Positions 3,693 through 33,591 of a stretch of 35,677 nt of DNA are shown here, in pieces (the stretch's first letter is position 1; the number at the start of each line of letters is the position of its first letter). Made by a program: the position numbers and the translations under genes. Origin of the DNA: an uncultured Clostridium sp. (GTDB lineage Bacteria; Bacillota_I; Bacilli_A; RF39; UBA660); NCBI GenBank assembly GCA_964589375.1, contig CAZPSA010000006.1:1-35677 (forward strand). The letters run 5' to 3'. The notes below the pieces were generated by a model. The model did no database searches. It saw nothing but the letters and a program-made list of their open reading frames with translations, and was not told the origin of the DNA.

Positions 3693-4124
3693 TTAGTAAA
3701 TCTCTTGACATATATTAGTCTCTGGTCGATAAAAGCAATGATTTTTATAGCTTCCAGAATATGGTTGATCATACCAGGTTACTTTACAAGTATTTTTTCC
3801 TGGTGCATAAAACCATAATGCATGAGTAGCAGGATAATAATATTCACCTTTTAAGCATCTTTTTGCTAAATCTTTTTCTTTTGTAGTACTACTTCCATTA
3901 AATAAAGAACTATTAATTCCCGAAAAACCCCCAGGACTTTGATAAACAACATCACTAATTGTTCGAATGTTTTTAAACGTATAGCAAGATGCTAATGCCC
4001 GATTTACAATTACATTACCAACCATAAGCATACCTAAATTTCCTTCATTTAAAGCTTCTGCTCGCATTAATCTGGCCATTAAATCAAGTTCTTTTGTAGT
4101 ATAGTTAATTACCATATATATCAC
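3693..4124 (-). CDS. cwlJ: CwlJ/SleB-family spore cortex-lytic cell wall hydrolase
   Basis: 143 aa. DLMARLMRAEALNEG..GMLMVGNVIVNR and a C-terminal HCFY..E..C segment match the CwlJ layout and length (B. subtilis CwlJ is 142 aa). Confidence 0.8.
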   Translation of the reverse strand: MIYMVINYTTKELDLMARLMRAEALNEGNLGMLMVGNVIVNRALASCYTFKNIRTISDVVYQSPGGFSGINSSLFNGSSTTKEKDLAKRCLKGEYYYPATHALWFYAPGKNTCKVTWYDQPYSGSYKNHCFYRPETNICQEIY

Positions 4125-11450: not shown

Positions 11451-12503
11451 TTAGAAATTATCTCTATCTCTTAAAAATGGTGGAATATCAAAGTCACTAT
11501 CGTCTTGAATATTCTTAGTATTGGCACTTTCCCTATTAGCTTCGGCTGCTCTTTGTTCATCTTCAAAACCGGTGGCAATAACAGTTACTATTACCTCATC
11601 ATTTAAGTTTTCATTAATAACAGCACCAAAGATGATATTGATATCATTATTAGATGCTTGTCTTACAACCTCAGCGGCATCTTCTGCTTCGAACAAAGTT
11701 AAACTTGTGCCACCGGTAACATTAATTATCGCATCAGTTGCACCATCTATACTTGTTTCTAAAAGTGGACTAGATACAGCTTGTTTAGCAGCTTCAATAG
11801 CTCTATTTTCACCAACACCTAAACCAATACCAATTAAAGCAGAACCTCTTTTTTCCATTACAGTTTTAACATCAGCAAAGTCTAAGTTTACTAATCCTGA
11901 TACGGCAATTAAATCACTAATTGATTGTACTCCACGATGTAAAACATTATCAACTTCTTTAAAGGCATCTATCATCGGTGTTTGTTTATCAATAATTTCT
12001 CTTAATCTATCATTAGGAATAACAATCAAAGTATCAACATGTTTCTTTAACTCTTCAATTCCTAAGATAGCTTGTTCCATTCTCCTTTTACCTTCAAATC
12101 TAAAAGGCTTAGTAACAATACCTACAGTAAGTGCTCCTAAATCTGCGGCAATTTCAGCAATAACGGGAGCTGCACCTGTACCAGTGCCACCACCCATACC
12201 ACAAGTAACAAAAATCATATCAGCACCTTTTAATGCTTCCTTAATTTCCTCCTTGCTCTCTAAAGCTGCTGCTCTACCAACTTCCGGATTAGCCCCAGCT
12301 CCTAGGCCATTAGTAATATTTGCCCCAATCTGAAGTTTATTTTCAGCTTTAGAAACATTTAAAACCTGTAAATCAGTATTTGCTACAATGAACTCTACAC
12401 CTTTAACTCCAGACTCTATCATACGGTTAACGGCATTACAACCACCGCCACCAACACCAATTACTTTTATTTTTGCAATTTGATCCATCTCTAGTCCAAA
12501 CAT
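11451..12503 (-). CDS. ftsZ: cell division GTPase FtsZ
   Basis: [13 protein letters not shown] and [10 protein letters not shown] tubulin-like signatures. 350 aa. Confidence 0.95.
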
Positions 12504-12518
12504 AAAATCTCCTCTTTC

Positions 12519-13760
12519 TTAATTGTCAAAAAAGTAACTTACTACTTTTCCTAATATAGAATCTTCAGCAATTACATTTTTCTTACCAGTATCTGTCATC
12601 TTTTCAATATCGCTTTCTGTAACTGCACTAAAATCCCTATTTCTCAAACTTAACTTTTCATTAAAATAAATGAGCATACCAACATCTACACTATAAGAAT
12701 TATTCCTCACTCCAATATTATTGATATTACCAACTTTGGCAGTACCACCATAAATAGAATTTACAGCATGAGGAAAATCTTTAATTTCCGCTAGTCCTCC
12801 TGTTATAATTATATAACTAATTTCCTTTTTTGTTAAGTGGTTAATAGAATTTTTCACTATTTTTAACATTTCTGCTAGTTTTTTACTTACAACTTGAGTT
12901 AATTCATACTGATTTATCTTAACATTAGTACCATCTTTAGTTATAACCTCACACTTTTCCTTAACATCACAACGTGCCATTACGGCTTTAGCTAAATGTT
13001 CTTTTAAATAAGTGGCTTCTTTCTTACGTAAGTTAAAAGTAAGTGCTATTTCTCTATCAATATCAATTCCACCAATATCAAGAGTTTGATTATTAATATA
13101 TACTCCCTTACTAAAAACACTAATATTAGTCTTAGTATCCCCTAAATTAACTATTACTACATTCTTTTCATCTAATTCAGGTGTTTTAAAATTATAATAG
13201 TCAACTAATCCGGTAGTAGTTATATCTATAACATCTAACCCTACCTCATTTAAAAAATTGATCATATCATAAACTTGTCTTTTACCAGCAGATACAATAA
13301 TACTCTTAAGTCCTAAAGTATTACCTACTTTACCATAAGGACTATCTGTATCATTACCACCAACTTTAAAAACAACAGGAATATTAGCAATCATCTCATC
13401 ATTAGGGTTAATTTCGTTATTAGAAGACTCTTTTAAAACTTTTAAAATATCCTTACTACTTACTACTTTATCTTCACTTTCAACATTCACTTGATATTCT
13501 ACCATCTTAAACTCATTATAATCAGTTGGAATATTCAAAATAACTTTCTTTATTCTAAAAGACAATTTACTTTCAGCTTCATCTAAAAGTAAATTAAGAG
13601 TACTTCTTAAGGCTTCTTTATCAACTATTGTATTATACTTAAAACCATTAGTACTCTTTTTAAGCGCTAATAAAACATGAATTTTATCATTAATAAATTC
13701 AGCCACAACTAATTTAACACTACTTGAACCTATATCTAAAGCACTAAATATCTTCCTCAT
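12519..13760 (-). CDS. ftsA: cell division protein FtsA
   Basis: 413 aa. N-terminal ALDIGSSSVKLVVAE actin-fold motif. Lies immediately upstream of ftsZ. Confidence 0.9.
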   Translation of the reverse strand: MRKIFSALDIGSSSVKLVVAEFINDKIHVLLALKKSTNGFKYNTIVDKEALRSTLNLLLDEAESKLSFRIKKVILNIPTDYNEFKMVEYQVNVESEDKVVSSKDILKVLKESSNNEINPNDEMIANIPVVFKVGGNDTDSPYGKVGNTLGLKSIIVSAGKRQVYDMINFLNEVGLDVIDITTTGLVDYYNFKTPELDEKNVVIVNLGDTKTNISVFSKGVYINNQTLDIGGIDIDREIALTFNLRKKEATYLKEHLAKAVMARCDVKEKCEVITKDGTNVKINQYELTQVVSKKLAEMLKIVKNSINHLTKKEISYIIITGGLAEIKDFPHAVNSIYGGTAKVGNINNIGVRNNSYSVDVGMLIYFNEKLSLRNRDFSAVTESDIEKMTDTGKKNVIAEDSILGKVVSYFFDN

Positions 13761-13887
13761 AAAATCAACCTTTACTTTAAAGAAATTATACTATAAAGTC
13801 ATATATATTTCAAATAAAACAATAAGCCTTGATTTTTCATTTTTTTAAATATATTATAAACAAGTATAGTTATTTAAGGAGGTTAGA

Positions 13888-15060
13888 ATGGTAAATTATC
13901 AAGAAATAATAAAAACATATAAATTATTAATAGTTAGAAATAATATTAGTTATAAAGAATTAAAAAGCAATAATATTTCGCCAAGATGTGTCAAACATAT
14001 GCTTAGTTTACAAATGATTGAAAAGAAACCTAAAACTTCTTTAATAAACCCGATTTATCAAATTAAAGACTTAACAAAACTTTATGAAATAACTTATAAA
14101 TGCGATTTTAAAGATAAAGAAATATTTTTAAGATATTTATATGACTTAAATTATTATACTTATGATTTATATATAGAACTACTTAAAATAGCGTTTAAGA
14201 AAAAAGATTATGATCTTTTATTTGATATTATAGATAAAATAATTTTAAATTATAATAACAATAATTCTATTCAAAATGGAATAACTAGTATCTTGTATAC
14301 CCTATCTTTTATTACTAAAATACCACCTAAATATAATAATAGAATTAAGAAAAATATAAATGAAGATAATATAGATGATAACTTAGCAAGTTTTAAAATA
14401 ACTCTATTAGAAAGTCAAAAAGCTTTAATTCATAAAAGAAATAATACTATCAAACGTTTAATTTCAAATAATGAATTTCAAAATTTAAGTTCTTTTTTAG
14501 AAATAGAAAGTGAAAAAGTAACAAGTTTAGGGACAATATATGAATTAATTAAGTATATTAATGAAACTATTTTAAGACTATTTAAAGGGGAAAAAATATG
14601 GATTAAAAATACCACTGAATTAAATATTTCTACTCTTATTTATAGTAATAATTTTAATATTGCCTTAAAACTATACATAATTATTCAAAATAAACTAAAT
14701 TTAAATGATGATAATTTAAAAGTAATACTAGAAAAAATAGTTTTAATAAGTAAAATGATGAGTAATATTACCGATGATGATTTAAAGCAAATTGCGGATT
14801 TAATAAGTGATGAATTTACGGTTGATAAAGTAGCAAATTTATTTAAATTAAGTTTAGAAGATAAAACTATAGTAACTTTATATGTTATAAGAAAAGCATT
14901 AATTAATGATAATACCAAACTAGCGCAAAGTCTTTTGAATAAGCCATATATAACAAGCTGTGATAGTTCAAATCTAACAATTAAAGGGCTTTTAAGGGAA
15001 ATTTATAAATTAAAAGAAGAACTAGGGCCTAAAAAATTAATAATTGAGAATAATAAGTAA
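13888..15060 (+). CDS. hypothetical protein predicted to be all-helical
   Basis: 390 aa. Good RBS AAGGAGG. No motifs. Transcribed divergently from ftsA. Confidence 0.5.
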   Translation: MVNYQEIIKTYKLLIVRNNISYKELKSNNISPRCVKHMLSLQMIEKKPKTSLINPIYQIKDLTKLYEITYKCDFKDKEIFLRYLYDLNYYTYDLYIELLKIAFKKKDYDLLFDIIDKIILNYNNNNSIQNGITSILYTLSFITKIPPKYNNRIKKNINEDNIDDNLASFKITLLESQKALIHKRNNTIKRLISNNEFQNLSSFLEIESEKVTSLGTIYELIKYINETILRLFKGEKIWIKNTTELNISTLIYSNNFNIALKLYIIIQNKLNLNDDNLKVILEKIVLISKMMSNITDDDLKQIADLISDEFTVDKVANLFKLSLEDKTIVTLYVIRKALINDNTKLAQSLLNKPYITSCDSSNLTIKGLLREIYKLKEELGPKKLIIENNK

Positions 15061-15135
15061 TGAATATACCTAATTTTAACTTAGATAATAATAGTTAGAA
15101 ACTTATCTGATTTTACTATTTTAAAAGGTATTTTC

Positions 15136-15164
15136 TTTAAGTTTTTTGTGAGACATGTTATACT
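15136..15164 (+). promoter_or_regulatory. candidate extended -10 promoter for murT-gatD
   Basis: TGtTATACT at 15156-15164 with a weak -35. RBS GGTGA sits before the ATG at 15182. Confidence 0.3.
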
Positions 15165-15181
15165 CTTATTGGTGATAATAA

Positions 15182-16513
15182 ATGAAAACTACCTTATTAA
15201 TATTAATAAATAAACTTATAACTTTAGTATGTAATATCTTTGGTCGGGATGGAAGTGTCTTTCCGGCAAGTATAGTTAGACCATTTGATAAAAATATCTT
15301 AGAAAAAATAAAATATCCTAAATATGTAGTTGGGGTAACTGGTTCTAGTGGTAAAGGTAGTACAACCTCAATTATTGCTCATATATTAAAAACTAGTGGT
15401 TTAAAAGTATGCTATAACGCTAACGGGTCAAATGTTGTTAATGGGACTTGCACTTTAATTTTAAATAATACAAATGCTTTTACACATAAAATGAAATGTG
15501 ATGTATTGCTACTAGAAATGGATGAATCCTATATTAAAGAAACATTTAAAAATAATACTCTAACTCATATAGTTGTAACAAATATAACCAGAGATCAACC
15601 ATCAAGAAATAAAGAGCCAGAAATAATACTAGATAAAATAAAAAATAGTATTGGAAGTGCTCACATAGTATATAATGCTGATGACGTATTTGTAAATAGA
15701 TTAAGCTTATTGCCTAATGCTAAAACAAGTTATGGAATTGCTAAAACAAAATATAGTATAAAAAAACCAATAAGTAATAATATTGATGCGGCTTACTGCC
15801 CAATATGTCATGAAAAATTAATATATAGTTATTACCACTATGGACATTTAGGAAGCTATAAATGTCCTAATGATGATTTTAAAAGAAATATTGATTATTT
15901 AGCTAAAAATGTTGATTTAAAAAATCGCCAATTCCAAATTAATAATAATGATATAACTTTAAATAAAGATGCTTTCTTTGCGGTTTATTATACTCTAGCC
16001 GCTTATAGTCTATGTAAAGTTTTAAATATTTCAGAAGAAACAATAAATAAAGCCTTAAATGTTAATCCTTTAGAAGCTAAAAGACTAAAAACATTAAAAT
16101 TAGATAATCGTGATGTTGAAATGATTGAATCTAAAAATGAAAATAATTTAAGTTATCTAATGTCTTTGAACTATATTAATGACTATCAAGGGCCTAAAAC
16201 TGTTATTCTAGGATTTGATAATGTTTCAAGGAGATATAAATATAATGATATATCATGGCTATATGATGTTGACTTTGAAATATTAGATATAAATAATATT
16301 GAAAAAATATACTGTATTGGAAGATTTAGATATGATTGTTATAATAGATTAATATTAGCGGGTATAAGTGAAGATAAACTAGTATTAGTTAATGATTTAA
16401 AAGGATTAATAAAAGATGTTAAAAAAGAAACAACTGGTACAATATTTACTATGGTATGTTTTGATATGACAGCAGTTTTAAAAAAATTAATTATGGAGGA
16501 AAACAATGATTAA
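15182..16513 (+). CDS. murT: lipid II isoglutaminyl synthase, Mur-ligase-like subunit MurT
   Basis: Mur ligase P-loop GVTGSSGKGSTT. TNITRDQ motif. Cys4 zinc ribbon CPICHEK..YKCPND. C-terminal DUF1727-like region. Adjacent to and overlapping gatD. Confidence 0.85.
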   Translation: MKTTLLILINKLITLVCNIFGRDGSVFPASIVRPFDKNILEKIKYPKYVVGVTGSSGKGSTTSIIAHILKTSGLKVCYNANGSNVVNGTCTLILNNTNAFTHKMKCDVLLLEMDESYIKETFKNNTLTHIVVTNITRDQPSRNKEPEIILDKIKNSIGSAHIVYNADDVFVNRLSLLPNAKTSYGIAKTKYSIKKPISNNIDAAYCPICHEKLIYSYYHYGHLGSYKCPNDDFKRNIDYLAKNVDLKNRQFQINNNDITLNKDAFFAVYYTLAAYSLCKVLNISEETINKALNVNPLEAKRLKTLKLDNRDVEMIESKNENNLSYLMSLNYINDYQGPKTVILGFDNVSRRYKYNDISWLYDVDFEILDINNIEKIYCIGRFRYDCYNRLILAGISEDKLVLVNDLKGLIKDVKKETTGTIFTMVCFDMTAVLKKLIMEENND

Positions 16514-17219
16514 AATAGCTCATTTATATTATGATTTATTAAATCTATATGGTGAACAAGGAAATATTTTAGCCCTTACATCTTCTTTAAAAAATCAAAA
16601 TATAGATTATACTGTAGACTTATTTTCCTTAAAAGATGATATAGATTTTAAATCTTATGATATTGTTTATATCGGGACAGGGTCTTTAGAAGATTTAAAA
16701 TTGGCTGCTAAAGATATTATAAGATTTAAAAGAAAACTAACAAATTATATCGAAAGTAATAAATACTTAATTGCGACTGGTTCTTCTTATCTTTTATTTG
16801 GAAAATCAATTACTTATAGTGATAATGAAGTTATAGAAGGTCTTAATATATTTGATTATTATGCAAAAAAAGTTCCACAGAGAATTGTATGTCATTCATT
16901 TTTAAGATGGAAAGATAACTATGGACCAATTATTGGTTTTCAAAATAGATCATTTATTGTTCAAATTAATGATAATCACCTTTTTTCTGTTATTAAGGGA
17001 AATGCAGACAATGAAAAAAGTAATTATGAAGGATACCGTTATAAAAATTTTATTGGTACTCATTTAATCGGACCATTTTTAATTAGAAATCCCCACTTTA
17101 CTGATGAAATTATTAAAGATATTTTACAAAAAGAAGGAAAGAAATTTCATAATGACACTAATACGCCAAGTTATAGCGCTTATAATGAATATTTAAAAAA
17201 CTTTTATGAAAACGCATAA
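16506..17219 (+). CDS. gatD: GatD-like CobB/CobQ-type glutamine amidotransferase partner of MurT
   Basis: 237 aa. GatD-like N-terminus IAHLYYDLLNLYGEQGNILAL. Overlaps the murT stop. The expected nucleophile elbow reads ATGSSYLLFGKS, with no Cys. Confidence 0.75.
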   Translation: MIKIAHLYYDLLNLYGEQGNILALTSSLKNQNIDYTVDLFSLKDDIDFKSYDIVYIGTGSLEDLKLAAKDIIRFKRKLTNYIESNKYLIATGSSYLLFGKSITYSDNEVIEGLNIFDYYAKKVPQRIVCHSFLRWKDNYGPIIGFQNRSFIVQINDNHLFSVIKGNADNEKSNYEGYRYKNFIGTHLIGPFLIRNPHFTDEIIKDILQKEGKKFHNDTNTPSYSAYNEYLKNFYENA

Positions 17220-17284
17220 AAGTTTTTTTCAAAACAAAAGACTGTTTAAAATTAATTGCTTAATTTCGTAACAGCCCCTATTAT

Positions 17285-17749
17285 TTAACATACACAATCT
17301 ACATAACAATCATTTAAACATCTAACAATACAACAACAATCTAAGTTCATTGTAAAGAAGCTATTAGTTGCAATATATGGTTGGCTGTTACAACAAGATT
17401 GATCTGGATTTGTTGCTAAAACTCTAAAAGTACAGCAATTTCCTTCTATCTTTTCAACTCTAAATACATTTGAGCAACCTTCACAAGAACTATCAACAGA
17501 TGGTGTTGAGCATGTAGTGCTTAAATCTTTGCTAGTTGGCATACTTAGTGGAACTCCATTACCACAACACATATATATCATAACTGGTCTAGTATTGCAA
17601 ATAAGGCAATTATTTCCCCCACCAAGCATTGGTCTATCACATGAGTCTAAACAATTTTCTGGACAAGCATTTTGTTGTAAAATACAAATAACTTTTAAAG
17701 TTTCACAAATACAATTACCTTCATTTTGATTATTACACATTTTTTTCAC
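17285..17749 (-). CDS. cysteine-rich protein (25 Cys in 154 aa), no signal peptide
   Basis: MKKMCNNQNEGNCICETLKVIC ... DCCCIVRCLNDCYVDCVC. Contains CC and CCC clusters. RBS GGGTGA. Confidence 0.6.
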   Translation of the reverse strand: MKKMCNNQNEGNCICETLKVICILQQNACPENCLDSCDRPMLGGGNNCLICNTRPVMIYMCCGNGVPLSMPTSKDLSTTCSTPSVDSSCEGCSNVFRVEKIEGNCCTFRVLATNPDQSCCNSQPYIATNSFFTMNLDCCCIVRCLNDCYVDCVC

Positions 17750-17839
17750 CCTTTCATTTACTCAATATATTTTATGTGGAAGATAAAAAATAGTGTATTT
17801 TTTTTAAAAATTTGATAAAATGTTAATAGGTGATAAATT

Positions 17840-18151
17840 ATGTGGTGGCAATATTTAATTATTTTTTTTGTTTTATTTCTAATTAGTTTAGTAATCGTAA
17901 AGTTAAATAAGAAAAATTTTACATTTGAAATTAATAAATTAGTTCAATATTTAGGTGGCAAAGATAATATTTTAGATACCGAAGTTAATGTATCAAGATT
18001 AAAAGTTACATTAAAAGATATTACTTTAGTTGATAAAGAGGCAATCCAAAAACTAGGCGCTAAAGGTATCGTTGAAATTGATAATCAATTGAAAATAATT
18101 TTTGGCCCTAACGCTAAAGCATTAAAAAAATACATAAGTGAAATGAAGTAA
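17840..18151 (+). CDS. membrane-anchored PTS EIIB(Glc)-like domain protein lacking the phospho-Cys
   Basis: N-terminal TM helix, then YLGGKDNILDTEVNVSRLKV..LGAKGIVEIDNQLKIIFGPNA. This aligns with E. coli PtsG IIB FGGKENITNLDACITRLRV..LGAAGVV..QAIFG, with the Cys position occupied by Asn. Confidence 0.65.
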   Translation: MWWQYLIIFFVLFLISLVIVKLNKKNFTFEINKLVQYLGGKDNILDTEVNVSRLKVTLKDITLVDKEAIQKLGAKGIVEIDNQLKIIFGPNAKALKKYISEMK

Positions 18152-18339
18152 CTTATGTATTTTTTTTAAGACAACATAATAATAAAGTCATTATTTTAAA
18201 ATATCAGATTATAATTCATCTTTTTCGGGTTGTTTTTTATAAACTTTATATTTCTTTATACTTTTTATTAATTTTTCAACATTATTTTCATCATAGTATA
18301 GTTTTATAAATTCTATTGATTGTTCATATTTTTCGCTCT

Positions 18340-19923
18340 CTAATTTACCACAAATGGAGCAGCTGCTGTTCCGGTTCCACCCGAGTTAATTGTGGTGGTA
18401 CTCTTGAGAGAAAGACTTGGTCGCAAACCATAGTCAGATATCTGCACGCTGGTGCCACCCACTTTACCATCGCCATTCGCTCGCCACATGAGCGCACGGT
18501 TATCATTGTAGAAGTAGTATGGCGACAAAGTCCACCAATAAGTAGTGGAACTTACATTTCCATTTAAATAATTAGATGTTGATACAGTTTCCCAATCTTT
18601 ATATCCAGCATATGCTAATTCATCATATGTTAATAAGCCTATTTTATAATCTAAATTACCATTTCCATTGGTTGTATCACTTACAGTAAATTTAGAAAGT
18701 TTTCCACCTTCATTATCATTTGGACATATTAGACTTGGTGTTCCACTAGTATATCTATTATTTGCACCATAATCTGATCTTGAAGTACTACTTCCTTTTC
18801 CATCTCCCGTTGTACTTTTATCATTACACCAGATAGTATCAGCAAGTTTACTTTCGTATGTAGCAATATTATTTTCATACCATGTTTCTAAATTAGTCAA
18901 GATTGTACTTTTAGTTTCGTTCGCATGAGTTGAGCCATAATCACTTCCGGTTGGTGAACCATACATGAAACCAACATATGCATTACTATTGTAATTTGTA
19001 TTAAAGGCTGTTGTATATGAGGCACCACTGTATCTAGCAAAAGCTAAATTGTTTCCAGTTTGGGTACAATCAGTACTTGAGTAATTATATAGTACTAGTT
19101 TAATTGATCCATCGCCCGTTACTCTGACTATTCGCCAGCACATTCCCGCAAAAGATACAAAATTATTTTGAACATTACCTCTAAAATAATAGCTTATTCC
19201 ATAATCATCTTCAGCTGCTGCCATGACTGCTTCAGTACTTAATGATACTTCTGTTCCTGGGGTTGTTAGGGGTTCTGTTGGATTATTATAATTTGCTTTT
19301 ATTCCAGCTAAGAGTGTTTCACTTGCTGCTTCGCTCCATCCAGATGGGGCAGAATTATATGCTTCTGTTCCAGCACCCTCTATTTCAATATGAGCAGCAA
19401 ACTTAGCTTTTTGATATTTGTTTTGATCTTCGTTATTATCTTTGAAATATATTTTTAATGTATAATTATGTTCTTTGTCTTCTCCTGCTATGAAATAGCC
19501 TTGTCCTAGTTCTTCGGTTGTTGTTCCACTTATTGTTCCATCTGTTATACTAGCTATTACTTTACCATTATCTGATGTGTTTACACTATCTAAGCTATAA
19601 GTTAAACTATCTTCAAATTCGTTATTATCTATGACTAGTTTAACTTTATAATACATTGCTAGTTCCGTAGTATTATTACCTGTTACTTTAAACTTTTTAG
19701 TTATCCATTCTTCATCTCTTGGATATATTTTAGTTGCACTTACATCTAAAGCATTTGAGTTATCACTATAGGTTATTGATAATTCGCCAGCATCCATATA
19801 AATAGTTGATGAGCTTTCACTTCCCGTTATAATGGCACTAAAGTAAGCAAAAGATACGCCCGCAATAACTACTACTAATAATAAAACTATTGCAAGTATC
19901 AAACTTTTCTTATTGTTTTTCAT
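18340..19923 (-). CDS. secreted protein with a TasA/camelysin-type (SipW-cognate) signal peptide and a large Gly/Thr/Ser/Tyr-rich C-terminal region
   Basis: The N-terminus ends in AGVSFAYFSA, like the TasA/CalY FAYFSD signal motif. 527 aa. The 3'-terminal 200 bp are about 48% GC. Confidence 0.6.
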   Translation of the reverse strand: MKNNKKSLILAIVLLLVVVIAGVSFAYFSAIITGSESSSTIYMDAGELSITYSDNSNALDVSATKIYPRDEEWITKKFKVTGNNTTELAMYYKVKLVIDNNEFEDSLTYSLDSVNTSDNGKVIASITDGTISGTTTEELGQGYFIAGEDKEHNYTLKIYFKDNNEDQNKYQKAKFAAHIEIEGAGTEAYNSAPSGWSEAASETLLAGIKANYNNPTEPLTTPGTEVSLSTEAVMAAAEDDYGISYYFRGNVQNNFVSFAGMCWRIVRVTGDGSIKLVLYNYSSTDCTQTGNNLAFARYSGASYTTAFNTNYNSNAYVGFMYGSPTGSDYGSTHANETKSTILTNLETWYENNIATYESKLADTIWCNDKSTTGDGKGSSTSRSDYGANNRYTSGTPSLICPNDNEGGKLSKFTVSDTTNGNGNLDYKIGLLTYDELAYAGYKDWETVSTSNYLNGNVSSTTYWWTLSPYYFYNDNRALMWRANGDGKVGGTSVQISDYGLRPSLSLKSTTTINSGGTGTAAAPFVVN

Positions 19924-19979
19924 ACGCCATTTTTCCTCTACTTTCTTTCCTATATTATACTGATAATAGGTATAACTAT

Positions 19980-20055
19980 GTCAAGTTAATTTTCTATATC
20001 AAAAATGTCTACGATATTAACCAAATAAAAACTTGAACGATTGTCCAAGTTAATT
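19980..20055. repeat. intergenic palindromic repeat copy, includes the likely thyX terminator
   Basis: GTCAAGTTAATTTT then 7 nt then AAAAATGTCTACGATATTAACC. Minus-sense hairpin CTTGGACaatcGTTCAAG followed by TTTTTATTT just after the stop of 20063..21265. Confidence 0.4.
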
Positions 20056-20062
20056 ATTATTA

Positions 20063-21265
20063 TTAGATTTTTCTAACTAATTGTATTCCTTCTGAAAAAT
20101 TACAGCATGAAGAACACTTAAAGTCTGGGAAAGTACATCTAGCTCCATTAGTTCGTTTCTTTATATCTCCTGCTAAAGGACTACCTGAATTTTCTAAAGC
20201 TTCCTTATATTTTAATAAAGTTTCTCTAGTTTGTTGGACTATTTCTAATTGAGCAGCCGTACAAAGTCTTTCCTTACATTTTAAAATGAAATCATCATAT
20301 TTACCAGATTCACAAATTCTGATAAACTCACCTTGAGGATTTACATCTTTAACTACTCTCATATCCTTTAACCATTCATCAACTAACATTTCATCATCAG
20401 CAATTATTGGTGGAACATAATATTCTTTTTCATCTAACATTTCCATTTGATAATCAAGAGTTCTATGACGCAGAGCATGGGCAAGTTGAGCAAAAGAACC
20501 CTTATAAGTTGTAATATAAACCTTACCAAAATAATCATCAGTTTCATCTAAATTGTGACCAAATAATGATAAATGGCGACATTTTTCATTTTGCATTAGC
20601 CTTTTCTCTAAGACATTTACTTCATCTAAAGCAGTTAATAACTCTTGCATAGCTTGAGCTAATTTTCTTTCAAAAGGAATATCATTATTAGCGTTCTTAA
20701 TAAACTCTTGTAACCATGACGCTATATAGTTAATTTGTCTTAAAGATGTAGAATAAATCATCTGTGTTGGCATAAATACAGTAACTAAATATCTTGCATT
20801 TTCTTGAGCTAATTTTTGAATCTTAGCATCATTATAAAAATCACCATATTTTTCTTTGATTTTTAATTTAAAAATATCAATCCACTTATTATAAAGGGTT
20901 TCTTCTGCCTCAGTTATAATTGAACCTTCTTGTCTAATAACTGGAGTATAACGAGCAGATTTTTCACTAGTAGTATATTGATGTTCATTATTAATTACCA
21001 TTGCTAAAATTTTAGGTATATTTTGGAGATTAAAATTAATCGTAATATGATCATACACACTATGATGACCATTATTTAATGTCATATTAACTCTACGCAT
21101 TGTTTTTTCTTCTGGCTCTTGTTCTAAATGGGAAAATCCTTCTTTATCATAACAAATACCAGCAATTTTTCCAGATAATTTTATTGCTTCTTCTTTATCA
21201 AAAGTACCATCTGGTTTTAAATACTTGTTTGGTAAAATACTTACCTTAATCTTTGTTTGTTCCAT
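20063..21265 (-). CDS. ThyX-fold (FAD-dependent thymidylate synthase-like) protein, divergent and unusually long
   Basis: The N-terminal 110 aa align in pattern with T. maritima ThyX (AGICYD / NGHHSVYDH / SARY against ARVSFD / HGHETPFEH / SGRY). The RHR of the ThyX motif is NEH here. There is a 150-aa C-terminal extension ending in CTFPDFKCSSCCNF. Confidence 0.5.
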   Translation of the reverse strand: MEQTKIKVSILPNKYLKPDGTFDKEEAIKLSGKIAGICYDKEGFSHLEQEPEEKTMRRVNMTLNNGHHSVYDHITINFNLQNIPKILAMVINNEHQYTTSEKSARYTPVIRQEGSIITEAEETLYNKWIDIFKLKIKEKYGDFYNDAKIQKLAQENARYLVTVFMPTQMIYSTSLRQINYIASWLQEFIKNANNDIPFERKLAQAMQELLTALDEVNVLEKRLMQNEKCRHLSLFGHNLDETDDYFGKVYITTYKGSFAQLAHALRHRTLDYQMEMLDEKEYYVPPIIADDEMLVDEWLKDMRVVKDVNPQGEFIRICESGKYDDFILKCKERLCTAAQLEIVQQTRETLLKYKEALENSGSPLAGDIKKRTNGARCTFPDFKCSSCCNFSEGIQLVRKI

Positions 21266-21383
21266 AAATCCTCCTTAGTTTTTTACAAATTAATTATATC
21301 ATATAGCAAATTAACCCTGCAACTAAACTAAATGAATTAAATAAAGCTTAATTAAGGAAAAAATATGATCTTTTTGACCATAT

Positions 21384-22546
21384 TTATTTAACTATTACTC
21401 TAATTATATTTTTCTTACCTTTATGTAAAACAAAATCATTTGGGCATTCATAGTTTGGATCAAGTATTTTATCTTGATTAACCATAATTCCCCCTTGAAT
21501 AACTAGTCTTCTAGCTTCACTTTTAGATGGTGCTAATTTACTTTCAACTAAGATATTTAAGATATTATTATCGCTTACAGTAACTTTTGGCATTTCATCA
21601 GTTACTTCACCATTAAATATTTTTTCACTAATCTCCTTAGCTTTTTTAGCTTCATCTACCCCATGTAAATCTTTTACTACTTCATAAGCAAGAGTTTTTT
21701 GGGCTAATCTATTTTCCGGATTATTTTCAACTTCTAAAGCTAGATTTTCAATTTCTTCTTTAGATAAGAAAGTAAATACCTTTAAATATTCAACAACTTT
21801 AGAATCATCAGAATTAAGTAGGTATTGATATATTTTATATGGAGATGTTTTCTCTTTATCTAGCCATAAAGCATTACCTTCACTTTTACCAAACTTTTTT
21901 CCTGTCGCGTCTAAAATAAGTGGCATGGTAAAGCCATAAGCTTCTTTACCTTCTATTTTTCTAATAAGCTCAATACCAGTTGTAATATTTCCCCATTGAT
22001 CTGAACCTGCTGCTTGTAAAACACAGTTTTTATTATTAAATAGATGTAAGAAATCAAATCCTTGTAAAAGAGTATATGAAAATTCAGCATAAGTAATACC
22101 AGTTTCTAAACGTCTTTGAATTATATCTTTTCCTAGCATATAATTAACATTAATATATTTACCTATATCTCTTAAAAAATCTAGAAATGTTATATCCTTA
22201 GTTCAATCATAATTATTAACTATTTCAGCTTTTCCTTCTAAAAGAATGGTTATTTGTTTCTTTAAACCTTCAATGTTTTTTAATACTGTTTCCTTGGATA
22301 TTATTTCTCTTTCGGCTGTTGGTCTTGGATCGCCAATTAGTCCAGTTGCTTCGCCAACCAATATTATAGGGTTATGACCATGTCTAGCTAATCTTTTAGC
22401 AGTTACAAATGAGGCATAATGACCTATATGTAAACTATCCGCGGTTGGATCTGTTCCTAAGTAAAAAGTTATAGTTTTTCTTCTAATTCTGGTGAGCTAA
22501 TGTCTTTAACTACACCTCTCCATTTTAGTTCTTCAAAAAATGTCAT
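21384..22546 (-). pseudogene. tyrS: tyrosyl-tRNA synthetase gene (tyrS) disrupted by a -1 frameshift and an in-frame TGA
   Basis: ATG at 22546 gives MTFFEELKWRGVVKDISSPELEEKL then a stop. A -1 shift in an A5 run (about 22447-22455) restores ITFYLGTDPTADSLHIGHY (HIGH motif). A TGA at 22203-22205 sits exactly at the conserved Trp of NNYDW. The track ORF 21384..22139 carries KFGKS (the KMSKS motif) and a C-terminal S4 domain. Confidence 0.6.
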
Positions 22547-22547
22547 G

Positions 22548-23030
22548 TTAATCCTCCTTATTTGTTGAACCGATACCACCAGCTCTAACATTTGTTATTT
22601 CTTCTTCATCATCTACAGTTAAATATTTCATAAAGACAGCTTGAGCAATTCGATCAAAAGCTTTTACTTCAATATCTTTATCACCATGATTAATTATTTT
22701 AACTTTAAAGTGTCCTTCATTATCTGGATTATTATAAAAATCACTATCTATAACTCCCACACTATTAGCTAAAGTTGCACAATATTTATAACCAAATGAG
22801 CTTCTAGTATAAAGGTATAATACCTCATCATCATTCATACATACTTTTAATCCAGTTGCAAAAACTTTAGCTTCTTTTGGTTTTATTACTTCATCTTTTA
22901 AAGCACAAATATCATAACCAGCAGAATGTTTAGTGCTTCTTTTTGGTAAAGTATATTTTTCATATAATTCTTTATCCTCGGAAATATCTTTTTTAAATTG
23001 TTCAAAACTAATTTTTTCAAATTTTCGCAT
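22548..23030 (-). CDS. dut: dUTP diphosphatase (dUTPase)
   Basis: Motifs AGYDI, RSS, GVIDSDF and RAGGIGSTNK. 160 aa. Its stop lies 2 nt from the tyrS start. Confidence 0.75.
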   Translation of the reverse strand: MRKFEKISFEQFKKDISEDKELYEKYTLPKRSTKHSAGYDICALKDEVIKPKEAKVFATGLKVCMNDDEVLYLYTRSSFGYKYCATLANSVGVIDSDFYNNPDNEGHFKVKIINHGDKDIEVKAFDRIAQAVFMKYLTVDDEEEITNVRAGGIGSTNKED

Positions 23031-23454: not shown

Positions 23455-23655
23455 TCATTGGTATCTTTTTGGCACCGCATTTAAATCAAATAATTCATAA
23501 TTATTTTGAGTAACTGGTATCATATTATTGAAGTTAACAATCCCTAAATTTTCTTTAGCAATTTTAACCGTATCCAAGTTATTTTTCATATGTACATGCT
23601 TAACTTTAGGACTTGATAATGGGGCAAAGTATTCACAGCTATCTATAGTAAACAA
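23455..23655 (-). CDS. small hypothetical ORF, possibly a remnant
   Basis: 66 aa, no motif, and it lies in a region showing other signs of decay. Confidence 0.2.
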   Translation of the reverse strand: MFTIDSCEYFAPLSSPKVKHVHMKNNLDTVKIAKENLGIVNFNNMIPVTQNNYELFDLNAVPKRYQ

Positions 23656-28860: not shown

Positions 28861-29043
28861 CTATTCATCACTCAAATTTCTATAAATTATCATGGCAGTA
28901 AAACAATATATTTGCTCTTCTTTACAAGCTGTTATTGCCACACTATACTTAATATCTATTAGTTCATCTATGGTTTTTAAAAAAGCATTAACGCTATTTT
29001 CTAAATCTTTTTCATGAGACTCATCAAAAACTTTAACTAGCAT
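28861..29043 (-). CDS. Cse60-family small sporulation protein
   Basis: 60 aa. VKVFDESHEKDLE..DIKYSVA..E.IYCFTAMIIYR matches my recollection of the Cse60 pattern. Its stop abuts the flippase start. Confidence 0.5.
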   Translation of the reverse strand: MLVKVFDESHEKDLENSVNAFLKTIDELIDIKYSVAITACKEEQIYCFTAMIIYRNLSDE

Positions 29044-32229: not shown

Positions 32230-33591
32230 TCATTTTTTAATATTATGAAGAAACTTTATACTTATATCACTACCTATTTCTTTTAAAAATTCTTCATATA
32301 AAGAGATAACCACTTCGTTTTTATATGGATATTTAATAATTGCTTGCTTATCTATCTTAAGTAAGCTTTTTTGTCTTGTTGTAAGAAGCTCTTCACGTTC
32401 TTTAATTGGCATTAAAATTCCGCCGCCGCCACCAATACAACCACCAGGACAATTCATGACTTCAATTAAGTCATAGTCATTTTTTATTTTAAGAATTTTT
32501 TCTAAATTAATCATAGTTTTAACGGCTGCCATTTTGATTATTTTTTTATTAATCTTTACACTATATTCTTGATAATACTCTTTATCTGTAATCAAAATTT
32601 CAGAATTGTCTAAATCTTTTTTTGTCATTTCGTTATATAGACATCTTAAAACTGATAAAGCAACTCCCCCACTTATTCCAAATATTTTGCCTGATGAAGA
32701 ACCAATTATATCATCATATGGTGTATCATTAAGGGCTTTAAAATCAATCCCTTGTTCTTTTATCATAAGGGCTAGTTCACTAGTTGTTAAAGCAAAATCA
32801 CAATCTGAATTTATTATTTCAGCTTTCTTACTAGTACATGGTACAATAGAAACAATAATTAACTTTGTTGGATCAATACCTTCATTTTTAGCAAAGTATT
32901 CTTTAATTATTGTACTAGCCATTCCAATTGGACTTTTACAAGTTGAGATATCTTTTTTTAATTCTGGATGATATATTTGGGCATACTTTACCCAAGATGG
33001 ACAACAACTAGTAAACATTCCTTTTTGTCCTAGATTTATTCGATTTAATAATTCATGAGCTTCTTCAATACTAGTTAAATCAGCGCCAAATGAAACATCA
33101 AAAACATAATCAAATCCAAGTTTTTTAAGAGCACTAACACATTTTCCTTCAACAAATGTTCCCTTAGGTAAACCAAAAGCATCACCTAACGTAACTCTTA
33201 CTGCTGGAGCAGTCATGGCAATTATAGTATGATCTTTATTATTAATTAACGATAATACTTTTTGATAATCATATTTAGGGGTAAGAGCTCCAGTTGGACA
33301 AGTTAGGATACATTGTCCACAATTAATACATATTCCATCGCACTTAGTTTCATCATAAGTTATCCCAACATTATTTTTACAAGTTTTAGAACAAACTCCA
33401 CAATTAATACATTTAAAATTAATTCTATCTATACTTAAATTATCTTCTTTAATATTTACTCTATTATAGACTTTTTCTTCTTTAGTAATTAGCGAAAAAG
33501 ATTGAAGATTACTTCGGCAATAAGGACAAATATATCCATCTATTAATTCTCCATAGTGAAGAAAACCACAATTTTGACATTTATATATCAT
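32230..33591 (-). CDS. [FeFe]-hydrogenase catalytic subunit with an N-terminal rubredoxin-like Cys4 and two ferredoxin-type [4Fe-4S] motifs
   Basis: H-cluster motifs L1 FTSCCPSWV, L2 VPCTSKKAE and L3 EVMNCPGGCIGGGG. CINCGVCSKTC and CINCGQCILTCP. N-terminal CQNCG...CPYC. Confidence 0.85.
   Translation of the reverse strand: MIYKCQNCGFLHYGELIDGYICPYCRSNLQSFSLITKEEKVYNRVNIKEDNLSIDRINFKCINCGVCSKTCKNNVGITYDETKCDGICINCGQCILTCPTGALTPKYDYQKVLSLINNKDHTIIAMTAPAVRVTLGDAFGLPKGTFVEGKCVSALKKLGFDYVFDVSFGADLTSIEEAHELLNRINLGQKGMFTSCCPSWVKYAQIYHPELKKDISTCKSPIGMASTIIKEYFAKNEGIDPTKLIIVSIVPCTSKKAEIINSDCDFALTTSELALMIKEQGIDFKALNDTPYDDIIGSSSGKIFGISGGVALSVLRCLYNEMTKKDLDNSEILITDKEYYQEYSVKINKKIIKMAAVKTMINLEKILKIKNDYDLIEVMNCPGGCIGGGGGILMPIKEREELLTTRQKSLLKIDKQAIIKYPYKNEVVISLYEEFLKEIGSDISIKFLHNIKK

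What the first reader, a model, noticed from the sequence alone, without database searches (positions are those of the whole stretch)
17285..17749. Novel cysteine-rich protein (25 Cys in 154 aa) next to murT-gatD
About 16% cysteine, with CC and CCC clusters and no signal peptide or TM segment. In a genome carrying ger receptor genes, cwlJ and a Cse60-like gene, a cytoplasmically made hyper-Cys protein is most likely a cross-linked spore coat or exosporium component, though it could also be a metal-binding protein. I recognise no family signature. It is convergent with murT-gatD and has its own RBS.
Basis: partly seen in the sequence, partly recalled or inferred. Interest (0 to 1): 0.7.

Follow-up and report, generated by a model that had tools for sequence, protein, structure and literature searches.

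The report
Cysteine-rich CotY/ExsY-type spore surface protein
The cysteine-packed 151-residue protein is not a new family: it is an unusually cysteine-rich member of the known CotY/CotZ/ExsY spore-coat and exosporium family, found in an uncultured, low-GC gut bacterium of the class Bacilli, and it has a conserved late-sporulation (sigma-K type) promoter.

Summary
The ORF is real and has 25 Cys, against a window median of about 1%. The true start is most likely the ATG at 17740, which gives 151 aa (16.6% Cys).

The protein matches Pfam PF10612 (Spore-coat_CotZ) over its full length and above the curated cut-off. It aligns end to end with Bacillus cereus-group ExsY and CotY (26-28% identity; profile-profile probability 99.5%). 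All 120 listed relatives, of 1180 found, carry PF10612. One relative at 74% identity is already named "spore coat protein".

Orthologues occur in hundreds of uncultured gut Bacilli genomes. In 64 of 66 distinct upstream regions they carry the motif AC-N16-CATAnnnTA about 30 nt before the ATG. This is the sigma-K promoter form described for Bacillus exosporium genes.

The most likely function is a protein made late in the mother cell that self-assembles into a disulphide-cross-linked outer spore layer, as ExsY and CotY do.

What is unusual is the cysteine load. The window protein has 16.6% Cys; its subfamily median is 13%; 83 family representatives have a median of 8.4% and a maximum of 13%.

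The adjacency to murT-gatD is only loose synteny.

Verdict: a new member of a known kind, of modest interest.

The parts
17285..17740 (-). Coding sequence of the CotY/CotZ/ExsY-family protein (151 aa, 25 Cys; stop codon included).
   Evidence: ORF listing and translation. Pfam PF10612 at E 1.1e-8, 35.8 bits against a cut-off of 24, covering profile positions 6-159 of 159. Homologues start at MCNN. The identical 151-aa product is called in 5 other contigs.
17746..17754 (-). Ribosome-binding site AAAGGGTGA, 5-6 nt before the ATG
   Evidence: Read from the sequence. GAAAGGGTGAA is conserved in essentially all 72 orthologous upstream regions.
17768..17795 (-). Sigma-K-type promoter candidate: -35 CAC (17795..17793), a 16-nt spacer, and -10 CATAAAATA (17776..17768). 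The -10 element ends 27 nt before the ATG.
   Evidence: AC-N16-CATAnnnTA is found in 64 of 66 distinct orthologous upstream regions, always with a 16-nt spacer and ending 27-33 nt before the ATG. Chance expectation is 0.011 per 95 nt. The column consensus is cACT..(N)..CATAAAaTAT. This is the same form as the mapped SigK promoter of B. thuringiensis bclA, CAC-N16-CATATGTTA (PMC4750369).
17237..17279 (-). Terminator-like hairpin followed by a U-rich tract, in the 65-nt spacer shared with convergent gatD. It may act in both directions.
   Evidence: RNA fold gives -15.7 kcal/mol and z = -2.2 against shuffles. The simple terminator scan missed it because of the long interrupted stem. This is a weak feature and its role is inferred.

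Best explanation
The gene encodes a structural protein of the outermost spore layer (crust or exosporium basal layer) that belongs to the CotY/CotZ/ExsY family.

The proposed mechanism follows the characterised Bacillus members. The gene is transcribed late in the mother cell by sigma-K RNA polymerase. The protein is made in the mother-cell cytoplasm without a signal peptide. It self-assembles around the forespore into ring-shaped oligomers that tile into a two-dimensional lattice, and the lattice is then locked by many cooperative intra- and inter-subunit disulphide bonds.

This lineage roughly doubles the cysteine content. About 9 cysteine positions are shared with ExsY and CotY, about 9 more are conserved in the gut-Bacilli subfamily, and about 7 are variable. 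This should allow a denser cross-link network.

Shown here: family membership, the conserved cysteine framework, the conserved promoter and RBS, and the spore-former context. Inferred: expression timing, self-assembly, disulphide cross-linking and surface location.
For: The protein matches Pfam PF10612 over its full length, above the gathering score.

BLASTP with composition adjustment against proteins named ExsY (P0126; E 8e-12, 26% identity) and CotY (P0141; E 1e-13, 28% identity) aligns end to end. hhalign of the subfamily profile against a Bacillus ExsY/CotY profile gives probability 99.55% and E 2e-23.

The shared motifs are not only cysteines: LQ, C..C..P.LG, NTRP..LY, FRVE, R.L and T.DL.C.C.I.CL.D. 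Cysteines at positions 2, 10, 30, 34, 102, 117, 135, 137 and 141 are shared with all 6 Bacillus sequences compared.

The sigma-K-type promoter is conserved at a fixed position in 64 of 66 distinct orthologous upstream regions while the flanking sequence diverges. exsY and other exosporium genes are SigK-dependent with the same motif form, and cotYZ is described in that paper as transcribed by a similar mechanism (PMC4750369).

ExsY and B. subtilis CotY self-assemble into disulphide-cross-linked hexameric 2D lattices even when expressed in E. coli (PMC5434927; PMC4950064).

The protein has no signal peptide and no transmembrane segment. The window encodes a GerA-type germinant receptor, a CwlJ/SleB-type lytic enzyme and Cse60, so the host has endospore genes.

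A close relative is annotated 'spore coat protein'.
Against: There is no expression, proteomic or microscopy data for this uncultured lineage, so sporulation itself is only predicted from genomes (PMC10868615).

Identity to the characterised members is only 26-28%.

No sigK, cotE or nap (bclA/bxpB) genes were seen in the window, and the rest of the genome could not be inspected.

A CATA-type -10 element is also shared by sigma-E promoters, so the sigma factor assignment rests mainly on the CAC -35 element and the 16-nt spacing.

The host is probably a strict anaerobe (an [FeFe]-hydrogenase gene lies at 32230..33591), so when and how disulphides would form is unclear.

The AlphaFold model is of medium confidence (pLDDT 74) and gives less than 50 for residues 27-47, which include the most conserved motif CDRPMLGGG.
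Confidence: 0.85

Rival explanations
1. It is a CotY/CotZ-family protein by descent but has been repurposed as a cytoplasmic metal-binding or redox-buffering protein, metallothionein-like or holding an Fe-S or Zn cluster. The extra CC and CCC clusters would serve as ligands rather than cross-links.
For: The cysteine content of 16.6% exceeds every one of 83 full-length family representatives (maximum 13.0%). The CC, CCC and C-x-C spacings resemble metal-binding motifs. The host looks anaerobic, and disulphides are disfavoured in such cells.
Against: No metallothionein or metal-binding family was hit in Pfam or NCBIfam at E up to 10. The predicted fold is a helix plus a beta-rich core, not an unstructured Cys thread. 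The conserved sporulation-type promoter and the retention of the whole ExsY/CotY framework argue for the ancestral structural role. Most of the extra cysteines are conserved across the subfamily and sit within the same framework.
Confidence: 0.07
2. It is a spore coat protein of the family but sits in an inner coat layer or acts as a morphogenetic adaptor (CotZ-like) rather than as the lattice-forming surface protein. It might be expressed from a sigma-E rather than a sigma-K promoter.
For: B. subtilis CotZ is described as the morphogenetic protein for the crust (PMC4950064). The -10 element CATAAAATA also partly fits the sigma-E type (CATAcA-T, from general knowledge of Bacillus promoters). 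The window holds only one paralogue, so a single protein may combine roles.
Against: The -35 CAC with a strictly conserved 16-nt spacer is the SigK form reported for bclA. The cwlJ-like gene in the same window carries a distinct CATACAAT element, which suggests the two promoter classes can be told apart in this genome. The sequence aligns end to end with ExsY and B. cereus-group CotY; it was not compared with B. subtilis CotZ.
Confidence: 0.07
3. It is a precursor of a ribosomally made, cysteine-cross-linked peptide (ranthipeptide/SCIFF-like), or it is a spurious or decaying ORF.
For: Only the high cysteine content supports this.
Against: At 151 aa it is far longer than such precursors. No radical-SAM maturase or peptide exporter was identified in the scanned genes from 11451 to 23030; one 390-aa ORF there has no Pfam match. 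The protein is conserved over its full length across hundreds of genomes, with an intact RBS and promoter.
Confidence: 0.01

Closest known systems
ExsY and CotY of the Bacillus cereus/anthracis/thuringiensis group (exosporium basal layer and cap proteins; Pfam PF10612)
   Same: The length is similar (about 150 aa) and it is a single domain aligned end to end. The motifs LQ, C..C..P.LG, NTRP, FRVE and T.DL.C.C.I.CL.D are shared, as are 9 cysteine positions. There is no signal peptide. The promoter is of the SigK type, as mapped for exsY and bclA.
   Different: Identity is only 26-28%. This protein has 25 Cys against 12 in ExsY and 14 in CotY. It has an insert rich in Ser/Thr/Cys at residues 64-90 and lacks the 15-20-residue insert that ExsY carries after RVL. 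The host is an uncultured, probably anaerobic gut Bacilli lineage with 26% GC, not Bacillaceae. No partner genes (bxpB/exsFA, bclA, cotE) were seen nearby, and the window holds a single copy rather than an exsY/cotY pair.
CotY and CotZ of Bacillus subtilis (spore crust; cotVWXYZ cluster)
   Same: They belong to the same Pfam family, which is named after CotZ. They are cysteine-rich, and CotY forms disulphide-linked multimers and 2D crystals (PMC4950064). Transcription of cotYZ is described as similar to that of SigK-dependent exsY (PMC4750369).
   Different: B. subtilis CotY has 15 Cys in 161 residues (9%) against 25 in 151 (16.6%) here. There is no cotV/W/X-like neighbourhood.
CsxA/CsxC of Clostridium sporogenes and CdeC/CdeM of Clostridioides difficile (cysteine-rich exosporium proteins)
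   Same: The physical strategy is the same: cysteine-rich proteins made in the mother cell that self-assemble into ordered, disulphide-stabilised spore surface layers, in anaerobes as well (PMC7333573 and bioRxiv 10.64898/2026.09.03.749163).
   Different: The families and folds are unrelated. CsxA, CsxB and CsxC have no sequence homology to ExsY (PMC5434927), and CsxA and CsxC are built from SPOCS domains. The resemblance is analogy, not membership.

Membership tests
CotY/CotZ/ExsY family (Pfam PF10612 Spore-coat_CotZ) | Full-length match to the family profile above the curated gathering score | tested here: met
   35.8 bits against a cut-off of 24, E 1.1e-8, residues 4-144 on profile positions 6-159 of 159. 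All 120 listed relatives carry PF10612.
CotY/CotZ/ExsY family (Pfam PF10612 Spore-coat_CotZ) | Demonstrable homology to experimentally characterised members (ExsY and CotY of the B. cereus group) | tested here: met
   BLASTP gives E 8e-12 against ExsY P0126 and E 1e-13 against CotY P0141, end to end. hhalign gives 99.55% probability and E 2e-23.
CotY/CotZ/ExsY family (Pfam PF10612 Spore-coat_CotZ) | High cysteine content, with a large share of the cysteines at conserved family positions | tested here: met
   Nine Cys positions (2, 10, 30, 34, 102, 117, 135, 137, 141) are shared with all 6 Bacillus sequences. The feature is described for the family in PMC5434927.
CotY/CotZ/ExsY family (Pfam PF10612 Spore-coat_CotZ) | Small (about 150 aa) protein made in the mother cell, without signal peptide or membrane anchor | tested here: met
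   151 aa; maximum 19-residue hydropathy 1.18; no signal-like N-terminus.
CotY/CotZ/ExsY family (Pfam PF10612 Spore-coat_CotZ) | Late mother-cell, sigma-K-dependent transcription | tested here: inconclusive
   A SigK-consensus motif (CAC-N16-CATAAAATA) is conserved in 64 of 66 distinct orthologous upstream regions at a fixed distance from the ATG, matching the form in PMC4750369. Actual expression and the presence of sigK in this genome could not be tested.
CotY/CotZ/ExsY family (Pfam PF10612 Spore-coat_CotZ) | Self-assembly into hexameric rings and 2D lattices stabilised by disulphide bonds, located in the crust or exosporium | not testable with these tools
Metallothionein / cysteine-rich metal-binding proteins | Match to a metallothionein or metal-binding family; a short, low-complexity Cys-rich chain without a regular fold | tested here: not met
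   No such family appears in Pfam or NCBIfam at E up to 10. The model has a 16-residue helix and 7 beta strands.
Ranthipeptide / SCIFF-type RiPP precursors | Short precursor (tens of residues) next to a radical-SAM maturase | tested here: not met
   The protein is 151 aa. The neighbours are MurT, GatD, an EIIB-like membrane protein, a camelysin-like protein and ThyX, and none is a radical-SAM enzyme.
Clostridial cysteine-rich exosporium proteins (CsxA/CsxC SPOCS-domain proteins; CdeC/CdeM) | Sequence or fold relationship to CsxA/CsxC or CdeC | tested here: not met
   The only Pfam hit is PF10612. The literature states that the Csx proteins share no homology with ExsY (PMC5434927). Similar in how it works, but not a member.

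The most novel reading that the evidence does not exclude
In reduced-genome, uncultured gut Bacilli, whose ability to sporulate is so far only predicted from genomes, this hyper-cysteine CotY/ExsY homologue is the single, highly conserved lattice-forming protein of a simplified outer spore layer. Its roughly doubled cysteine complement would then give an unusually densely cross-linked shell, or one that hardens on exposure to oxygen, adapted to transmission between hosts. It would be both a marker and a handle for showing that these lineages really make spores.
Probability: 0.25. Interest if true: 0.45.

Novelty: new member of a known kind. Interest (0 to 1): 0.25.

Why it matters
The protein family and its mechanism are already known from Bacillus, so nothing here changes that picture.\n\nThe modest value is threefold:\n- It extends the ExsY/CotY family, with a conserved SigK-type promoter, into uncultured small-genome gut Bacilli, where sporulation is so far inferred only from gene content.\n- This subfamily is the most cysteine-rich branch of the family seen in the searches. 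That makes it a natural test case for the idea that cooperative disulphide formation drives spore-surface assembly, including in anaerobes.\n- The very well conserved gene and promoter could serve as a sequence marker for spore formers in gut metagenomes.

Tried and rejected
- NCBIfam gave no hit.
- A PDB sequence search gave only a chance hit at E 0.7.
- Foldseek of the AlphaFold model against the PDB gave nothing at E <= 0.001.
- The AlphaFold database library was not available.
- The sigma-70 and terminator consensus scan found no convincing housekeeping promoter (only 9/12 matches) and no canonical terminator. The hairpin was found only by folding.
- I tested the idea that adjacency to murT-gatD is meaningful and rejected it. 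The pairing is present in about a quarter of related loci and is often interrupted.
- Cluster look-ups gave almost no names, so they did not help place more distant representatives taxonomically.
- A literature search for the genus-level placeholders CAG-582 and CAG-605 did not give the taxonomy. The GTDB order of the host is therefore left open. RF39, RFN20 or ML615J-28-like is my guess from memory only.
- The GTG start proposed by the ORF finder was rejected in favour of the ATG at 17740.

Full report
**Observation.** The minus-strand ORF at 17285..17749 is present and translates to a 154-aa product with 25 cysteines. The window has 26.4% GC. Among its 51 open frames of at least 90 aa the median cysteine fraction is about 1% and the next highest value is 4.8%, so this ORF is a clear outlier. 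CC and CCC clusters are present. No 19-residue window approaches transmembrane hydropathy (maximum 1.18).

The start needs correcting. The GTG lies inside the Shine-Dalgarno sequence AAAGGGTGA, and an ATG follows 9 nt later at 17740. Homologues begin M-C-N-N. The exact 151-aa product has been called independently on five other metagenomic contigs. The gene is therefore 17285..17740 (-), 151 aa, 16.6% Cys.

It is convergent with murT (15182..16513) and gatD (16506..17219). The 65-nt spacer folds into a hairpin followed by a U-rich tract.

**Family.** The score is 35.8 bits against a gathering score of 24, with E 1.1e-8, on profile positions 6-159 of 159.

A database search returned 1180 relatives. 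The best 120 all carry PF10612. One of them, at 74% identity and seen on 684 contigs, is named "spore coat protein [Firmicutes bacterium CAG:582]".

To compare with characterised members I retrieved authentic B. cereus-group proteins named ExsY and CotY. BLASTP with composition adjustment aligns the window protein end to end with ExsY (26% identity, E 8e-12) and CotY (28% identity, E 1e-13). A profile-profile comparison of the gut subfamily with a Bacillus ExsY/CotY alignment gives 99.55% probability and E 2e-23.

The similarity is not just cysteine composition. The shared motifs include LQ, C..C..P.LG, NTRP..LY, FRVE, R.L and T.DL.C.C.I.CL.D. NCBIfam and PDB sequence searches found nothing.

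**Cysteines.** Nine cysteine positions (2, 10, 30, 34, 102, 117, 135, 137, 141) are shared with all six Bacillus sequences compared. About nine more (26, 45, 48, 58, 59, 77, 89, 116, 149) are conserved within the gut subfamily only. The rest vary, and C19 is unique to this sequence.

| Set | Cys count or fraction | Source |
|---|---|---|
| Window protein | 25 of 151 (16.6%) | |
| Gut-Bacilli subfamily | median 20 (13%), range 16-26 | |
| Retrieved Bacillus ExsY/CotY set | median 13 (7.9%), maximum 16 | |
| B. subtilis CotY | 15 of 161 | PMC4950064, |
| 83 full-length representatives, exhaustive profile search of 1.84 billion representative proteins (229 hits at E <= 1e-3) | median 8.4%, maximum 13.0% | |

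The window protein therefore sits at the extreme cysteine-rich end of a known family.

**Regulation.** I extracted the regions upstream of 72 orthologues, which gave 66 distinct sequences. Of these, 64 contain AC-N16-CATAnnnTA, always with a 16-nt spacer and ending 27-33 nt before the ATG. The chance rate in this window is about 0.011 per 95 nt. Anchoring the sequences on the -10 element gives the consensus cACT-(N)-CATAAAaTAT, followed by a conserved leader and the RBS, while sequence further upstream diverges.

The window copy is CAC (17795..17793), a 16-nt spacer, then CATAAAATA (17776..17768). This is the form reported for SigK-dependent exosporium promoters in B. thuringiensis. There, bclA has CAC-N16-CATATGTTA, exsY is SigK-dependent with a start site 33 bp before the ATG, and cotYZ of B. 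subtilis is described as similar (PMC4750369).

No convincing sigma-70 promoter was found. The cwlJ/sleB-like gene in the same window carries a different element, CATACAAT. From general knowledge this is the sigma-E type of -10, which suggests the two mother-cell promoter classes are distinguishable in this genome. The sigma-K assignment is an inference from sequence. Expression could not be tested, and sigK is not in the window.

**Structure.** AlphaFold2 with a 64-sequence alignment gives a medium-confidence model (pLDDT 74, pTM 0.71). It has an N-terminal helix (residues 10-25) and a beta-rich core. Residues 27-47 hold the most conserved motif, CDRPMLGGG, yet have pLDDT below 50. I read this as a segment that becomes ordered only in the assembly; that is an inference.

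**Host and context.** The 80 closest loci come from MAGs labelled uncultured Bacilli, Tenericutes or Erysipelotrichaceae, "Firmicutes bacterium CAG:582" or "Coprobacillus sp. CAG:605". They derive from human (including Hadza), rabbit, goat, deer and other gut samples. A few labels, such as Phocaeicola and Muribaculaceae, are evidently mis-binned. In all, 366 stretches in the species-representative genome set encode a relative.

The window itself encodes a GerA/GerC/GerB germinant receptor, a CwlJ/SleB-type hydrolase and Cse60. It also encodes FtsA/FtsZ, MurT/GatD and an [FeFe]-hydrogenase. This is consistent with an anaerobic, walled endospore former.

A genomic survey predicts that some families of the uncultured orders RF39, RFN20 and ML615J-28 retain sporulation (PMC10868615). 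I could not assign this window to a GTDB order.

Synteny shows that MurT and GatD are near the gene in only 19 and 21 of 80 loci, often with inserts. The most constant neighbour is a divergently transcribed 103-aa membrane protein with a PTS-EIIB-like domain, present in 56 of 80 loci.

**Mechanism.** By homology to ExsY and CotY, the protein is most likely made in the mother cell late in sporulation. It would then assemble on the spore surface into ring oligomers that tile a 2D lattice locked by cooperative disulphide bonds.

Both ExsY and CotY self-assemble into hexameric lattices in E. coli, and these need heat plus reducing agent to dissolve (PMC5434927; PMC4950064). The same physical strategy is used by unrelated cysteine-rich proteins in Clostridia (bioRxiv 10.64898/2026.09.03.749163).

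I put about 0.85 on this protein being a structural outer-layer spore protein of this family. Whether the layer is a crust or a true exosporium is open.

The rivals have little support:
- Metal binding: no family hit and a regular predicted fold.
- An inner-coat or adaptor role.
- A RiPP precursor: the protein is far too long and has no maturase nearby.

**Verdict.** The functional guess was right and the novelty claim was wrong. This is a new and unusually cysteine-rich member of a known kind, already labelled as a spore coat protein in public databases for close relatives, and of modest interest.

Noticed in passing
window 21384..22547 (-): The tyrosyl-tRNA synthetase gene is broken under table 11. 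The ATG at 22545 is followed by a stop after 25 codons, and the conserved ITFYLGTDPTADSLHIGHY continues in another frame. In addition, a TGA at 22203..22201 sits exactly where TyrRS has the Trp of 'NNYDW'. This could be a pseudogene, an assembly error or a TGG-to-TGA change. Other long ORFs are intact, so a general TGA=Trp code seems unlikely.
   Followed up: partly
window 17840..18151 (+): A 103-aa protein with an N-terminal membrane helix and a PTS EIIB-like domain, which appears to lack the usual active-site Cys (NVSRLKV). It is divergently transcribed about 90 nt from the cotY-like gene. It is the most constant neighbour of that gene (56 of 80 related loci, up to 99% identity). Its function is unknown and no link to the spore protein has been shown.
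   Followed up: partly
window 23455..23655 (-): A 66-aa ORF matches the middle of the ToxN toxin of type III toxin-antitoxin systems (PF13958, profile positions 38-102 of 159). It looks like a truncated remnant in a 1-kb gap that otherwise has no genes.
   Followed up: no
window 18340..19923 (-): A 527-aa protein whose N-terminal 180 residues resemble camelysin/TasA-type proteins (Peptidase_M73, E 2e-5) behind a signal-anchor-like N-terminus. Weak relatives recur near the cotY-like gene in about 12 of 80 loci.
   Followed up: no
window 20063..21265 (-): The ThyX-like protein is 400 aa, but only residues 27-178 match the Thy1 domain. It has a long C-terminal extension ending in a Cys-rich stretch (CTFPDFKCSSCC).
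   Followed up: no
window 3693..4124 (-) and upstream to 4145: The CwlJ/SleB-type cell wall hydrolase (PF07486) has CATACAAT about 20 nt upstream of its start. This is the sigma-E type of -10 element and is distinct from the CATAAAATA in front of the cotY-like gene.
   Followed up: no
window 28861..29043 (-): A 60-aa ORF is a clear Cse60 sporulation protein (PF10957, E 2e-25).
   Followed up: yes
L001 (CAVIQT010000068.1) and L032, L034, L043, L046 etc.: Contigs carrying close orthologues are deposited in bins labelled Phocaeicola vulgatus or Muribaculaceae. Since the gene belongs to a low-GC Bacilli spore former, these look like mis-binned contigs in public MAGs.
   Followed up: no
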